Assembly (NCBI RefSeq): GCF_009914755.1
Contig: NC_060931.1
DNA: 64,000 nt
Direction: 5' to 3' (one strand)
DNA from: the human T2T-CHM13v2.0 reference genome, Homo sapiens
Shown one piece after another: positions 1 through 58,691 of the stretch. A program made the position numbers and the translations under genes. A model generated the notes under the pieces. It was given only the letters and a program-made list of their open reading frames with translations. It had not been told where the DNA came from and made no database searches. Every line of letters starts with the position of its first letter. The first letter of the stretch is position 1.

Positions 1-332
1 ATCACAATGAAACATATTTATAGTCATGCTTGAACAGATTAGGTTAGTAGCATGCATTCCATTCTGCAATATGAATATTGTTAATCTATTTCCCAACAAA
101 AGTCAAAAGATGCCCAGTGCATAGAAAAATACAAATCACTGTAGTCAATATATTACGGGACTGATCTTGGGACTTACATGGTGATGATGAAGTCCTGAAA
201 TGCCATGCCCACAAAAGCACATTAAAAAGTGGATAAACATATTTTATCAGACAATCTCTAAAAATTAAAGATGAGAGCTTTAAATTTGGGGATGTTCTTG
301 CTGTGTGCTTTGAACAGGGCCTTTCTGCTCAC

Positions 333-515
333 CTCCTTCTGGCTTGACTGGTCCATCAGACATCACCTTCCTGAGGGCTAGCTGGCTTTGGTCTTGGTTG
401 CCATTGGCTGGTGGAGGCAGATTATCAGACTGAGTTCTTTGAATGGGGAGGACTCCTGCTATGCTGTGTCTGTGCTGCTTCCTGGCATGATTAGACTGAC
501 CGCTTTTATGTGCTG
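333..515 (-). CDS. PCLO: In-frame 183-nt PCLO cassette exon: (T)[60 protein letters not shown]
   Basis: ttccatttcacccacactgccacag|CAG acceptor, GAG|gtgagc donor, 61 codons, no stop, phase 1-1 matching the 1715 donor; GC-richer than its flanks. Confidence 0.82.
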
Positions 516-1581
516 CTGTGGCAGTGTGGGTGAAATGGAAACCCAGAGTATGTATCCTCAGATGGAACCAGCTTAAATGTTATTCATGCAAACAGAAGTG
601 CTCTTTTGCTCTATTTAAATAGGTTGTGTTTTCAAATGCCAAAATGACACCACATGCACAGCACTAAAGGGGTTTAAAACTGGCTGTTTCTTTGAAAATG
701 ATGACTAGGGAGATGGAGAGAACAATGATCTATCTCCATTGCCTGGCTAATGCCTTTTAGAAGTAACAGGGTACCTACATTTGTGAAATATTTGCACATA
801 TTAAGTTTTTATATAATTATATCAATCGACTAAATTTTCACAAATGAAATGAAAATACAGCAGTTAAGATAGGTCAATTGTTATACTTTGATTGACTTAT
901 AGCTACCAGACATAGTATATCTTGATTTCCAATGGTTAGAAAAAATATCTGTAAAATCTGTCATCACATACAAAGTGTGATCCAACAGAATGGACCCAAT
1001 TGTGCTCCTCAGTGAGGTTGCATTGCCTTATCACATATGCTTATACATATATTAATTTAATGTAGTTTTTTGAGAATGTAAGAAATAAGATTTTCTTCAC
1101 AGATTTTTCAGAAGACTACAATTTTTTGCACATGGAAAGCTACCATATTTCAGAAGCAAAATTTGTTAGTGTTTTAAAGCACTGTCTTGAAATGGCTTTT
1201 CCTCCAAGGTTCTAGAAGTTGACTGTTGGTTGCATTATCTTCTGCCTAGACTTTTTGAGTGTTTTCAGATACAAGAATCTAATTGCAAATCTGCTCTAAA
1301 TACTTATATGTGTGCACTTTTTTTTTTTTGGTATAAGTCCTGGAAAACTGGCAGCCACTTGTGCTTATAATTTCTGTATTCTAAAAGATATTTAAGCGCA
1401 AACAAAAAGGACACACAACATTGCTTTGCTTCCAAACATCACAGACACTGTATCAAATGCTATGAGCCAGGTTGGATGGATGGTGGAAACAAAGGAGAAA
1501 CAGCCAGTTTTATTTCAGTCTATGTAAATAAAAAAAATCTAAATAAGAAAGAGCATATTAATGTATTTATATCGTTCTTAC

Positions 1582-1626
1582 ACAGACAAAGGGACAGAGA
1601 ACAGGGTGAGCAGAGGATGTTGAAAA
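1582..1626 (-). CDS. PCLO: Candidate 45-nt PCLO microexon: (I)FNILCSPCSLSLCL
   Basis: About 45-nt pyrimidine tract + tttgctttcag| acceptor, TGT|gtaaga donor, phase 1-1, open frame; no transcript evidence available to me. Confidence 0.35.
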
Positions 1627-1698
1627 CTGAAAGCAAACAGGAAAGGACAGCAGGAAAGAAAGGCAACAGATGAACATTAAGCTGCCATGCTGAGGAAT

Positions 1699-1910
1699 TT
1701 ATTTGCGTCTTTTACTTGGTTGAATGCGGAGTTGTTGCACGGCAGCTTCGGCAGCAGCTATGGCAGCCCCTGCATCTTCCAGGTGGGTCTGAGTGACGCT
1801 GGTTTTGCTTTGACTGCGAGATGGTCCATGAGAACGGAGATGGCCTTCTGATGATGATTTTGAGCTACCAGGACTACTATGGGATTTCTCAATGGTGGGA
1901 ACCTGCATGT
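1699..1910 (-). CDS. PCLO: PCLO composite exon: terminal coding exon of the short isoform (DMQVPTIEK...[12 protein letters not shown]); 1716-1910 when the internal donor is used for the long isoform
   Basis: ccag|AC ATG acceptor; TAA at 1699-1701; internal CCAA|gtaaaa donor at 1715. Confidence 0.95.
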
Positions 1911-7187: not shown

Positions 7188-8544
7188 CTGAATTGGGAGA
7201 AAAGAAAGAGTTATCTTGATTATTCACCTTAGTTTATGACTTCACAGTTAAACTAAAGGACATGCAGACTATTCAAGATATTTTATTTCAAATCACTATA
7301 TAATTATCTCATCATCCTCATGTCTTAAACCTTAGTTTAAGTTGAATGCACAGTGACAATTTAAAAATATGTTGGATGCTTGTAGTTTTCTTTGCCCTTA
7401 TGATTTTTTTTTAAAGAAATGCTTGTAGGTGTTCTAAATATACTATAATTTCAGAAATCTTGCTCATTCCTGAATGTAGGAGATAATTACATGAACTAAA
7501 TAGTAACATCAATGTTACTGCCCCATAAACAATAATTTGGTGTTTAACCTTACTATAGTTTTGTACATACGGAAAAGCAAAACTAAAACATTGTAATGAG
7601 TGTACTGAGAAAAAGATGAAGAATGGCTGTTGCTGTGGCTCACATTCCATAAACACTTGTTACTGATATCTAAAGTATATTCCAACACTCTTGGTAAAGT
7701 ATATTTAATGCAGTTATAAAGCAATTTTAATTAAATATAAATTTTTGGTTTATGTCAATATGCTATTTTACAATTGATGAACCAAATAAAAATCTTTCCT
7801 CAATTATTAGAACTTGGGACATCTGCATTAATCCTTGACTTTCCATTTCCTCTGAGCACCAATTAGAAGCTTATATGCTACACATTTAAAAACAATTTAT
7901 TTTCAAAGCCTATCCTAATGAAGTCTGGCAGAACATCTATAGCTGGCACCAACCTGCTGATGGGGTTGAAATTAGATTACTGTTACTTGCTATTACCAAA
8001 TGGTGCCCACACAGACAAGGCCTTTCTCTAACTCTCACTGCTTTTTTCTGAATTTTCTGCCCAAGCTTATGTCTCACGTTCTAAATAATACTTCATCTGT
8101 GGTGGGCACTAGAGTCCTGTAAACCAACCTCTCTGTCTGGGGGTCTTGACATGTGTCTGGATTTCACAAGTTGCCTTTCCCTAAAAGGGGGCTGGACCCT
8201 GACTCTTGTAATCTGTAGTTCTATTCCAAACTATAGCCAGACTAACTCTTGCTACATTCCTGGTCTCAAGTATTGCCATATCCTGGATGCCTAGAAATTT
8301 TCCCCAGCCACTAATTTACCTATACATTGTAGAGAAAGCTATTGAGGATCAAACTCCAGCTCACCACTCACTTTTAAAGATGGGCCTGCAGGCAAGTACT
8401 TTCCCTGTATCTCTGATTTTATTTTCTTACCAGTCAGATACAAGGGAAATAACGCTCAACATTGACTGCATAATGGGATCACCTGAGTTCTGGTGGTGGG
8501 AGGTGGGTCAGTCAACCCTCCACCCACTTCCCTCTTGCCCCTGC

Positions 8545-14887: not shown

Positions 14888-14914
14888 CTTGCATTCTGGA
14901 CAACCATGACTTGA
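14888..14914 (-). CDS. PCLO: PCLO 27-nt alternatively spliced microexon in C2A: (G)QVMVVQNA(S)
   Basis: Pyrimidine tract + atgcag|T acceptor, AAG|gtagag donor, phase 2-2; matches the known 9-residue Piccolo C2A insert. Confidence 0.94.
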
Positions 14915-26359: not shown

Positions 26360-26468
26360 AGTCTTACACATATTTCTGCTTCCCCACTTTGCTGACTAAT
26401 GATACTCTGAACTTCTTCATATGTTTTAGAAGTCAAGGGAATTCCATTCCATTCCAATACTTGCATCC
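26360..26468 (-). CDS. PCLO: PCLO exon, C-terminal half of PDZ: [35 protein letters not shown](L)
   Basis: ctag|GGATG acceptor, ACT|gtgagt donor, 109 nt, frame continuous. Confidence 0.96.
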
Positions 26469-46341: not shown

Positions 46342-46502
46342 GGTCCAGGTGCAGCGGCTCAGGCCTTTAATCCCAGAACTTTGGGAGGCTGATGCAGGAG
46401 GATCGTTTGAGCACAGAAGGTCAAGGCTAGCCTGGGCAACATGGCAACACTCCTGTCTCTACAAAAAATTTAAAAGAATTAGCATATGTGGTAGTGCATG
46501 CC
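46342..46502 (+). mobile_element. AluJ left arm / partial Alu
   Basis: ggaggatcgtttgagc..agcctgggcaacatggc. Confidence 0.85.
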
Positions 46503-48589
46503 TTTTTACTACTTACAATATTCTAAGCATGACATTATGTTTCCTATATCTTATTCCTAAATTTGATAACAATTTTGCCAACTATTATCCCTGTTATCCA
46601 GCTAAGAACACCTGGGTACTAAAAGTTTTAAAAAATCCAGGCAATAAGTACCAGATCTGAATTTAAATCCTGATCTAACTCTAAAAGCATGGCTGTCTAC
46701 AAACCACTGGAGATACTAAAGCATTGGCTGGTGGAAGATCTGGTATGGATATTAAAAAGAGAGGTTAGCATCCTTGCTTCCAAAGTAACCACTCCAAGCT
46801 TACGAAAAAGTGCAGTCTATTCCAAGAAATATTGGTTAGACAAATCCGGAAATCTAACTGTAGGAACAATTGTTCCTTATGAAGCAATATCACTGAACAC
46901 AGAAATACCTCAAAGTATGTCAACCTTGATGAAGGCAATCAAATTAGGATTTGGGGCATTGTACCACATAAAACAGGACATTATTTAGTTTCCTTCATGT
47001 CCCTATCACAAAGATTATAATGTAAGCATAATTCTCCTCTGATAAATTTCAAAATAAATGGATAAAGAAGAGAAATATGTTTCTTTGTACTGGCAATGTA
47101 TCTAATCACTAGTATCGTGATGTGGTGTGATATCACTACATCTTGAAAATAATATATTAGAACCTATCAGCCCAGGGACCAGTAATTTGTATTTTTCTTC
47201 ACAGAAGAGAGTTTCCTAAATATATATTAGAAAATCTTCATATCAACATGAAATGTGGTCTGTGTCATGTGTACCTAACGCACCAGCTTTAAGGAATTTT
47301 GAGAAATCTCATGCTAATGACCAATCCGTACCTGGTAATCCCCCTGGAACAAGAACAAGGAAGCTCACTCATCTGTGTGCTGTGTTTCTTGATCTCCAAC
47401 CTTGATCACTGCCATGCCATCTGTAACATATGCCAAAAAAGCATAAGCAGAAATAGAGACTTTCTTGCCTAGGAGCATTCTTCCTTATGTTATGCTGGAG
47501 TGCGTCCTCTGTCCTCTAGTAATGCTACTGGAATTAGCTCTTCTACCAAAGACTTTTTCATGACAAGGAATTCCAGAGGCCAACTTCTAAAATCAAAACC
47601 ACCACTCCAAAAACAGCTAATTTCATCCTTACTTCAATCCCTGATTCTCAGCATTACATCCAACAGCATTTTCTTGCCAGAAACCCTGTCAGTTCATCTT
47701 TAAGAAGAAGAGCAAGCTAGCTGGACCAATTTCACTCACCTACTCTGAAACAACTAAAAACTAAGAATATAAAAGTATGCATGAACTATAATTCATGTCA
47801 CAGAGGCATTTCCTCACAGAATACCTATGGACAAACAATGAAGTTTCTCTCATTTCATTACAAGTCTTATGGCCTTGGACGTGCTTACTTGCCATGTAGC
47901 TCTGGCTAAATCTATAAGCAAACATAGGATATCACTGGTTTTAGCTTTGTGCTCTTCCATGCTGTGTTACCACTGATTCATTAAGAATGTTCTTGAAGAC
48001 ACATTCAGATTTTAATGTTATATTTCTATCTTAGCTCCAAAGAGTTTTACAAAAATTTTCTAAATTTATCAATTATAATAATATAGATACAAGTTATCTT
48101 CAAAAGATTTTATTAAATTAACAAAGTTGAACAACTTATCAATATAAACAATTGTTTTAGGTTCATTGGATATATGATATTTAGTCCTTGTGGATTCATT
48201 GTTCTCTTACAAAAATTGCTGAAGTTTTAAAAGTATCACGATGGTAATGTATTTCACAATTATGTTATAACACAGACAACTAGGATGAAAATTAATTTGG
48301 AGAACTAGTTCAAAAAATCCAGTGATTAAATAAAGCTTAGAACCAATGATATGTATATAAAAGTTTAGATTTAGTCCATGATATTAACCAAGTAAAATTG
48401 ATTTTATCTATATTTTCTACTCTACCTTTTCTGGAGATATAATATTGGCATAAATTGATAAAACCATATAATATTGTTAATAAGTTTAACAATTGCTATG
48501 GATAATTGTTTTAATGTCCTAACTCTTGTTATTGTATTAATTCAGAATACAATGACTAAGTCTCTAAGTAGAGCAAAAACCTGCATTGT

Positions 48590-58565: not shown

Positions 58566-58691
58566 CTTCCATAAGCTTCCCCGTCTGTTCCGCACTTCCC
58601 CCAGGAAGAATCTTGGCAATATAGGCTCCAATTTCTCCACTATGTCCCGGGATTTCTTTACCACCCACAATTCTAATTCCTAATCCATTAC
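58566..58691 (-). CDS. PCLO: PCLO exon, N-terminal half of PDZ: (G)[41 protein letters not shown](G)
   Basis: tacag|GTAAT acceptor, GAAG|gtaag donor, 126 nt, phase 1-1; GLGI carboxylate-binding loop. Confidence 0.96.

What the first reader, a model, noticed from the sequence alone, without database searches (positions are those of the whole stretch)
333..515. Hidden 61-codon in-frame cassette exon inside the short-isoform 3'UTR
Seen: a GC-richer island on the minus strand bounded by ...ctgccacag| and GAG|gtgagc, 183 nt, no stop, phase 1-1, fitting the IQP-A| donor at 1715. It gives ...[64 protein letters not shown]. The ORF track missed it. Recall, unverified: the usual long Piccolo reads IQPTKPPNH without this insert, and an 'XL' aczonin variant with an insert of about this size between C2A and C2B has been reported, so it may be under-annotated rather than new. 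Inference: the same DNA serves as UTR, intron or coding exon.
Basis: partly seen in the sequence, partly recalled or inferred. Interest (0 to 1): 0.8.

Follow-up and report, generated by a model that had tools for sequence, protein, structure and literature searches.

The report
Known PCLO "XL" cassette exon
This stretch is a real 61-codon optional exon of the human synaptic gene Piccolo, but it was described in 1999 and is already in the RefSeq annotation, so it is not a new find.

Summary
Window 333-515 on the minus strand is 183 nt. It is bounded by cag| and |gtgagc, is open only in the frame that continues the ...IQP-A| donor at 1716, and is phase 1-1. It is also a GC island: 0.52-0.53 against 0.25-0.40 in the flanks.

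The interpretation as a coding cassette exon is right, but the exon is neither hidden nor new.
- The hub's RefSeq table already lists exon 333-515 in other PCLO transcripts.
- Wang et al. 1999 (PMC2164979; passages read) described "aczonin-XL": 61 extra codons (AHKS...PEGA) at this junction in chicken. RT-PCR showed mRNAs with and without the insert in similar amounts in chicken brain. They also state that the human gene encodes the XL insert on an exon downstream of the SKRRK end.

Conservation supports coding use. Protein models from koala, pilot whale, a frog and a catshark carry the insert (48-57 identical residues), and 29 of 60 alignment columns are invariant.

The peptide is basic and hydrophilic, matches no Pfam family or PDB chain, and is predicted mostly coil. 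It most likely extends the C2A-C2B linker and carries conserved serine motifs. That function is inferred and untested.

Verdict: already known. Interest is low.

The parts
333..515 (-). Alternative cassette exon of PCLO (the aczonin/Piccolo 'XL insert'): 183 nt, phase 1-1. It encodes T(split codon)-AHKSGQ...VKPEG-(split codon).
   Evidence: Searches give the sequence, frame and phase. The hub's RefSeq table lists exon 333-515 in other transcripts. One search is the published description. Searches show conservation from catshark to human.
516..540 (-). 3' splice site of the cassette: ttccatttcacccacactgccacag|, with 12 of 16 pyrimidines at -20..-5 and a CAG acceptor.
   Evidence: The score lies within the range of the 11 RefSeq exons in the window (9-15 of 16).
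327..332 (-). 5' splice site of the cassette: GAG|gtgagc, 7 of 9 matches to the MAG|GTRAGT consensus (consensus recalled).
   Evidence: The 11 RefSeq exons in the window score 6-8 of 9.
280..332 (-). Read-through of the cassette donor. It adds 17 codons in all (the first one begins at base 333), reading [17 protein letters not shown], then TAA at 282-280. This is the coding end of the RefSeq terminal exon -302..515.
   Evidence: and the hub table. Pilot-whale model P0004 ends in the same way, with 12 of 15 aligned residues identical.
1716..1910 (-). Upstream constitutive exon ending ...QQLRIQP + A. Its donor at 1716|1715 is either spliced (to this cassette or to the next exon) or read through.
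   Evidence: and the hub table (NM_033026.6).
1699..1715 (-). Read-through of the 1716 donor. Together with base 1716 it reads S-K-R-R-K, then TAA at 1701-1699. This is the C-terminus of the short isoform, whose 3'UTR runs on through 333-515.
   Evidence: sequence; the SKRRK end described, and said to be contiguous in the human gene. The hub table lists exon -302..1910.

Best explanation
Window 333-515 (minus strand) is the human copy of the Piccolo/aczonin 'XL insert', a conserved, alternatively included 183-nt coding exon of PCLO.

At the donor at 1716 the transcript has two fates. It can run on: five more codons (SKRRK), a stop, and a long 3'UTR that contains this stretch. That gives the short isoform without C2B. 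Or it can splice. Splicing to the next constitutive exon, which lies outside the window, gives the long isoform. Splicing first to the acceptor at 515 and then from the donor at 333 gives the XL isoform. A fourth annotated outcome enters at 515 but reads through the donor at 333, adding 17 codons and then a stop.

Inclusion adds 61 residues to the linker between the C2A and C2B domains. The added segment is basic, hydrophilic and largely unstructured, with a possible short helix.

Inferred, not shown: it acts as a regulated linker module. It lengthens the tether between the two C2 domains and contributes three conserved basic-x-x-Ser type sites that could be kinase targets or docking motifs.
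For: Shown by the sequence:
- Exact boundaries, the only open frame, and phase 1-1.
- The 11 RefSeq exons in the window plus the cassette give one stop-free frame of 1446 nt.
- Its splice-site scores lie within the range of the constitutive exons, and it is the only one of the 80 open phase-1-1 AG..GT stretches of at least 183 nt with sites that good.

Annotation (hub table): exon 333-515 is present in other RefSeq PCLO transcripts, together with -302..515 and -302..1910.

In print: Wang et al. 1999 (PMC2164979; passages read).
- Chicken aczonin-XL has 61 additional codons, AHKS...PEGA, at the position of mouse codon 4829.
[quoted passage not shown] Conservation:
- 9 of 12 candidates passed E <= 0.001.
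- Identical residues in the cassette: pilot whale 57 of 60, koala 56 of 60, frog 49 of 58 aligned, catshark 48 of 57 aligned. The neighbouring constitutive exon gives 59-63 of 64.
- 29 of 60 columns are invariant across the 10 rows.
- All 5 unnamed genomic-ORF rows stay open in the same frame.

Placement: the koala model has PDZ, C2A, 106 residues, the insert, about 85 residues, then C2B.

Nature of the peptide:
- pI 10.4, GRAVY -1.14, 38 of 60 disorder-promoting residues.
- 0 Pfam families at E <= 1 and 0 PDB chains at E <= 1.
- AlphaFold2 with the 10-row alignment: mean pLDDT 68, pTM 0.20, a single helix at residues 42-52.
- Ser17 and Ser29 are invariant and Ser52 nearly so, each with R or K at -2 to -4.
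Against: - No expression data for human or any mammal could be examined here.
- In Wang et al., 0 of 9 mouse brain cDNAs carried the insert: 8 were short and 1 long. Inclusion in mammals may therefore be low or restricted to certain cell types.
- Five of the nine homologous rows are mechanical ORFs from unnamed genomic contigs. The named ones are gene predictions. They show conservation, not expression.
- The functional part (phospho-regulated linker) rests only on composition, on conservation and on kinase consensus motifs that I recalled. The AlphaFold2 alignment is shallow, at 10 rows.
- No paper in the searchable library mentions peptides from the insert (0 papers). Supplementary proteomics tables were not searched.
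Confidence: 0.93

Rival explanations
1. The exon is real and is used in birds and some other vertebrates, but in humans it is rarely or never included. In human the stretch would then act mainly as 3'UTR or intron, and the RefSeq transcripts that carry it would be predicted or minor forms.
For: In Wang et al., 0 of 9 mouse brain cDNAs had the insert; the XL form was cloned from chicken only. The review by Gundelfinger et al. 2016 (PMC4709825) has no mention of the insert in the passages returned for splice, isoform and C2B terms. Apart from the 1999 paper, 'aczonin-XL' and 'XL insert' occur in no Piccolo paper in the library (18 papers, the other 17 about Bcl-xL or unrelated subjects).
Against: Mammalian copies are 93-98% identical in protein, with no frameshift or stop: whale 57 of 60, koala 56 of 60, and all 5 unnamed genomic ORFs open in frame. 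Disuse across mammals would not be expected to leave that pattern. The human splice sites are intact and as good as those of the constitutive exons.
Confidence: 0.1
2. The conservation reflects an RNA-level element in the short isoform's 3'UTR, such as a regulatory or localisation signal, and the open frame is incidental.
For: The stretch does lie in the 3'UTR of the most often cloned isoform (hub table; 8 of 9 mouse cDNAs were short). It is also a compositional island.
Against: A cDNA with the insert spliced in frame between the flanking coding exons was cloned from chicken, and RT-PCR showed it in chicken brain. The frame is kept open from catshark to human, and the three length differences in the catshark model are whole residues. 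Conservation starts and stops at the splice sites in the protein alignment, apart from GEQKG just after the donor. I could not compare synonymous with non-synonymous change, because no orthologous DNA was available.
Confidence: 0.03
3. It is a chance open frame between chance AG and GT dinucleotides, a pseudo-exon.
For: The window's minus strand holds 80 open phase-1-1 AG..GT stretches of at least 183 nt, so those features alone are common.
Against: The exon is published as cDNA and annotated (hub table). It is conserved at 79-98% protein identity across jawed vertebrates. It is the only one of the 80 with good splice sites.
Confidence: 0.01

Closest known systems
Chicken aczonin-XL insert (Wang et al. 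1999, J Cell Biol 147:151; PMC2164979; accession Y19187 as named in its Fig. 1 legend)
   Same: Same junction (after ...QQLRIQP), same length (61 codons), same first four residues (AHKS) and same end (PEG, then A from the split codon). The paper itself says the human gene has the exon downstream of the SKRRK end.
   Different: None in kind: this is the human orthologue. I could not see the full chicken insert sequence (Fig. 1 is not held as text), so identity to chicken was not measured.
RefSeq alternative PCLO transcripts on T2T-CHM13 (hub table: exons 333-515, -302..515, -302..1910)
   Same: Identical coordinates to the finding.
   Different: The selected transcript NM_033026.6 skips the exon. 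The accessions and evidence level (curated or predicted) of the transcripts that carry it were not given to me.
Alternative splicing in the C2A-C2B linker of RIM proteins
   Same: Optional segments lie between two C2 domains of an active-zone scaffold. Wang et al. themselves draw this parallel (Discussion passage).
   Different: No sequence similarity was found: the 4 named hits are Piccolo or Piccolo-like models, and the 5 unnamed ones align over the same exon. This is an analogy of architecture, not shared membership.
The 27-nt alternative exon inside the Piccolo C2A domain (Garcia et al. 2004; only the title seen, in a reference list)
   Same: Another optional in-frame exon of the same gene in the same window (14888-14914). 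It is absent from the koala, frog and catshark models.
   Different: That exon sits inside a folded domain, and according to the paper's title it switches the domain's conformation. The XL insert lies in a linker and is predicted to be mostly unstructured.

Membership tests
Piccolo/aczonin XL insert exon | 61 codons inserted in frame directly after ...QQLRIQP, at the junction where the short form instead reads SKRRK-stop | tested here: met
   183 nt, phase 1-1, open only in the frame that continues IQP-A|. The SKRRK-stop read-through is at 1716-1699.
Piccolo/aczonin XL insert exon | Insert reads AHKS ... PEGA | tested here: met
   The window translation starts AHKS and ends PEG, followed by a split codon beginning with G. 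The final A needs the next exon, which lies outside the window. The koala model reads PEG-A.
Piccolo/aczonin XL insert exon | In the human gene the exon lies downstream of the contiguous SKRRK end | tested here: met
   The exon lies about 1.2 kb downstream of the SKRRK stop on the minus strand, as stated in Wang et al..
Piccolo/aczonin XL insert exon | Lies between the C2A and C2B domains in the protein | tested here: met
   Koala Piccolo model P0006: PDZ at 298-375, C2 at 499-608, insert at 715-774, and a second C2 stretch after it (2 C2 stretches reported).
Piccolo/aczonin XL insert exon | Included in mature mRNA in human tissue | not testable with these tools
   No RNA-seq or EST data were on hand. 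RefSeq lists transcripts with the exon (hub table), but their evidence level is unknown to me.
Folded protein domain (any Pfam family or solved structure) | Significant profile or sequence match | tested here: not met
   0 Pfam families at E <= 1 and 0 PDB sequences at E <= 1. The AlphaFold2 pTM is 0.20.

The most novel reading that the evidence does not exclude
The XL insert may be more than a spacer. It would be an ancient regulatory module, at least as old as jawed vertebrates. Its three invariant or near-invariant serines in basic contexts, and its short conserved helix ([11 protein letters not shown]), would make the C2A-C2B region of Piccolo answer to presynaptic kinases or bind a partner, but only in the cell types that include the exon. 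As far as my searches reach, this function has not been studied since the insert was first described in 1999.
Probability: 0.3. Interest if true: 0.4.

Novelty: already known. Interest (0 to 1): 0.1.

Why it matters
The finding adds nothing new. The exon was published in 1999 and is in RefSeq.

What remains open is narrower. Piccolo is a major active-zone scaffold and PCLO is linked to human brain disease. This insert is conserved from shark to human almost as well as the neighbouring constitutive exon (48-57 identical residues against 59-63 of 64). Yet I found no follow-up of it in the searchable literature, and a major review's passages on isoforms do not mention it.

For variant interpretation, the stretch should be treated as coding in some isoforms, not only as 3'UTR or intron.

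Tried and rejected
Literature searches that found nothing useful:
- Full-text searches for peptides from the insert: 0 papers (one string, five strings). Supplementary tables are not covered by that search, so proteomic evidence may exist there.
- Names 'aczonin-XL', 'XL insert', 'Piccolo-XL', 'aczonin XL': only the 1999 paper was relevant, out of 18 hits.
- 'Pclo' plus 'alternative last exon': 1 paper, a false hit on the plasmid name 'pClone007'.
- A broader search at min_terms 2 returned general splicing papers without Pclo and was not pursued.
- Passages from Nonet 2012 (PMC3484663) and Gundelfinger 2016 (PMC4709825) say nothing about this insert.

Other attempts:
- Pfam and PDB gave no match for the peptide.
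- Earlier findings of this scan were not open to the session.
- I considered 14-3-3 and SH3 motif readings, using consensus motifs from recall. I dropped them because the peptide has no proline at +2 of the serines and no basic residue flanking the PPP stretch.
- I did not run the representative-library search or a fold search. Neither could change a verdict of 'already known'.

Full report
**What is there.** On the minus strand the stretch reads ...ttccatttcacccacactgccacag|CAGCACAT...CCAGAAGGAG|gtgagcag. It is 183 nt long.
- Two of its three frames contain stops (3 and 4). The third is open and translates to a 60-residue peptide that starts AHKSGQ and ends VKPEG.
- The upstream RefSeq exon 1716-1910 ends ...QQLRIQP plus one base (A). 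Joined to the cassette, only one frame is stop-free.
- Chaining all 11 NM_033026.6 exons that lie in the window with this exon gives one open frame of 1446 nt. The exon is phase 1 at both ends, so including or skipping it keeps the frame.
- GC content is 0.52-0.53 over 301-540 against 0.25-0.40 on either side. That matches the GC rise over the constitutive exon at 1716-1910.

**Is it more than chance?** AG..GT bounds with an open phase-1-1 frame are not rare. Among 104,983 AG..GT pairs of 60-600 nt on this strand, 80 are at least 183 nt long, a multiple of three, and open in that phase. Requiring splice sites at least as good as those seen leaves exactly one, this exon. The 11 RefSeq exons score 9-15 of 16 and 6-8 of 9 on the same scales, so the cassette's sites are ordinary for real exons in this gene. 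The thresholds were fitted to the observation, so the count overstates the case. The stronger evidence is external.

**It is already described.** Two sources show this.
- The hub's RefSeq table lists, among "exons of other transcripts", 333-515, -302..515 and -302..1910.
- Wang et al. 1999 (J Cell Biol 147:151, PMC2164979; I read the returned passages of Results, Discussion and figure legends) report the following. Splicing at mouse codon 4829 can replace the last 210 residues, including C2B, with a short SKRRK end (aczonin-S; 8 of 9 mouse brain cDNAs, with 1 of 9 long). [quoted passage not shown] The window matches this point for point. The read-through of the 1716 donor gives S-K-R-R-K and then TAA at 1701-1699. 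The insert begins AHKS and ends PEG with a split codon.

**Conservation.** A search of the 5.8-billion-protein collection with the 60-residue peptide, restricted to longer proteins, gave 9 proteins at E <= 0.001 among 12 candidates. They fall into two groups.
- Four are named gene models: pilot whale "piccolo-like", koala "Protein piccolo" (984 aa, PDZ + C2), a frog (Staurois parvus) and a catshark (Scyliorhinus torazame).
- Five are unnamed ORFs from genomic contigs. These translate the intron in front of the exon and read through the donor behind it. They are mechanical calls, not evidence of expression.

| Species | Cassette, identical residues | Upstream constitutive exon, identical residues |
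|---|---|---|
| Pilot whale | 57 of 60 | 60 of 64 |
| Koala | 56 of 60 | 63 of 64 |
| Frog | 49 of 58 aligned | 61 of 64 |
| Catshark | 48 of 57 aligned | 59 of 64 |

Across the 10 rows, 29 of 60 columns are invariant. They include [17 protein letters not shown] and SQLA. All 5 genomic ORFs keep the frame open, and the three length differences in the catshark model are whole residues. I had no orthologous DNA, so I ran no synonymous/non-synonymous test.

**Where it sits and what it looks like.**
- In the koala model the order is PDZ (298-375), C2A (499-608), 106 residues, the insert (715-774), about 85 residues, then C2B. The insert lengthens the C2A-C2B linker by roughly a third.
- The peptide is basic (pI 10.4; 8 K+R and 4 H against 4 D+E) and hydrophilic (GRAVY -1.14). 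It has 38 of 60 disorder-promoting residues.
- It matches no Pfam family at E <= 1 and no PDB chain at E <= 1.
- AlphaFold2 with the 10-row alignment gave mean pLDDT 68 and pTM 0.20. The model is coil throughout except one helix at residues 42-52. The alignment is shallow, so this is weak support for "mostly unstructured with a short helix".
- Three serines sit 2-4 residues after R or K, in the contexts RHS, RTQS and RKVMS. Two are invariant and the third nearly so. That they fit basophilic kinase consensus motifs is my recollection of those motifs, not a test.

**Most likely mechanism.** Shown or published: the donor at 1716 is a decision point.
- Read-through with polyadenylation further on gives the short form. 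Its 3'UTR contains this stretch.
- Splicing past the stretch gives the long form.
- Splicing into 515 and out of 333 gives XL.
- Entry at 515 with read-through of the 333 donor adds 17 codons and TAA at 282-280. That is the RefSeq terminal exon -302..515, and the pilot-whale model ends in the same way (12 of 15 aligned residues identical).

Inferred: the insert is a flexible linker module. It changes the spacing between the C2 domains and adds regulated short motifs, as the optional segments in the C2A-C2B linker of RIM are thought to do. Wang et al. draw that parallel themselves.

**Against, and left open.** I could not examine expression in humans. None of the 9 mouse cDNAs had the insert, so inclusion in mammals may be low or cell-type specific. 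The strong conservation in mammals argues that it is used somewhere. No paper in the searchable library carries peptides from the insert, and none uses the XL name apart from the 1999 paper. The isoform passages of a 2016 review and of a 2012 gene-structure paper do not mention it. Supplementary tables were not searched.

**Verdict.** The feature is published and annotated, so its novelty is "already known" and its interest is low.

Noticed in passing
window 14888-14914 (-): This 27-nt RefSeq exon (phase 2-2) adds nine residues, QVMVVQNAS with split codons, inside the C2A domain between LLPGRG and AEYKRR. The koala, frog and catshark models lack it. It appears to be the known alternatively spliced C2A insert; of Garcia et al. 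2004 I saw only the title, in a reference list.
   Followed up: partly
window 367-515 (-): An internal GT at 366 (AGG|gtgatg, 7 of 9 consensus matches) could act as an alternative donor. It would give a 149-nt version of the cassette that shifts the frame. There is no annotation for it in the hub table.
   Followed up: no
window 280-333 (-): Reading through the cassette's donor gives [17 protein letters not shown] and then a stop. RefSeq has this as terminal exon -302..515. The GEQKG part is kept in all 5 unnamed mammalian-like ORFs and GEQK in the pilot-whale model; the rest drifts. A fourth C-terminal variant of Piccolo therefore exists, at least on paper.
   Followed up: partly
window 7491-7604 (-): This is the only other open phase-1-1 AG..GT stretch of at least 60 nt in the window with splice sites as good as the cassette's (114 nt). 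It is not annotated and is probably chance. I did not check its conservation.
   Followed up: no
proteins P0002, P0003, P0005, P0007, P0008: The large protein collection holds 'proteins' that are plain ORFs run through vertebrate genomic DNA: intron translated upstream, exon in the middle, donor read through. They are useful as extra copies of the exon but misleading if taken as real proteins.
   Followed up: partly
window 46488-47420 (-): The hub table lists a 933-nt exon of another PCLO transcript, deep in the intron between exons 58566-58691 and 26360-26468. It may be an alternative first or last exon. I did not examine it.
   Followed up: no
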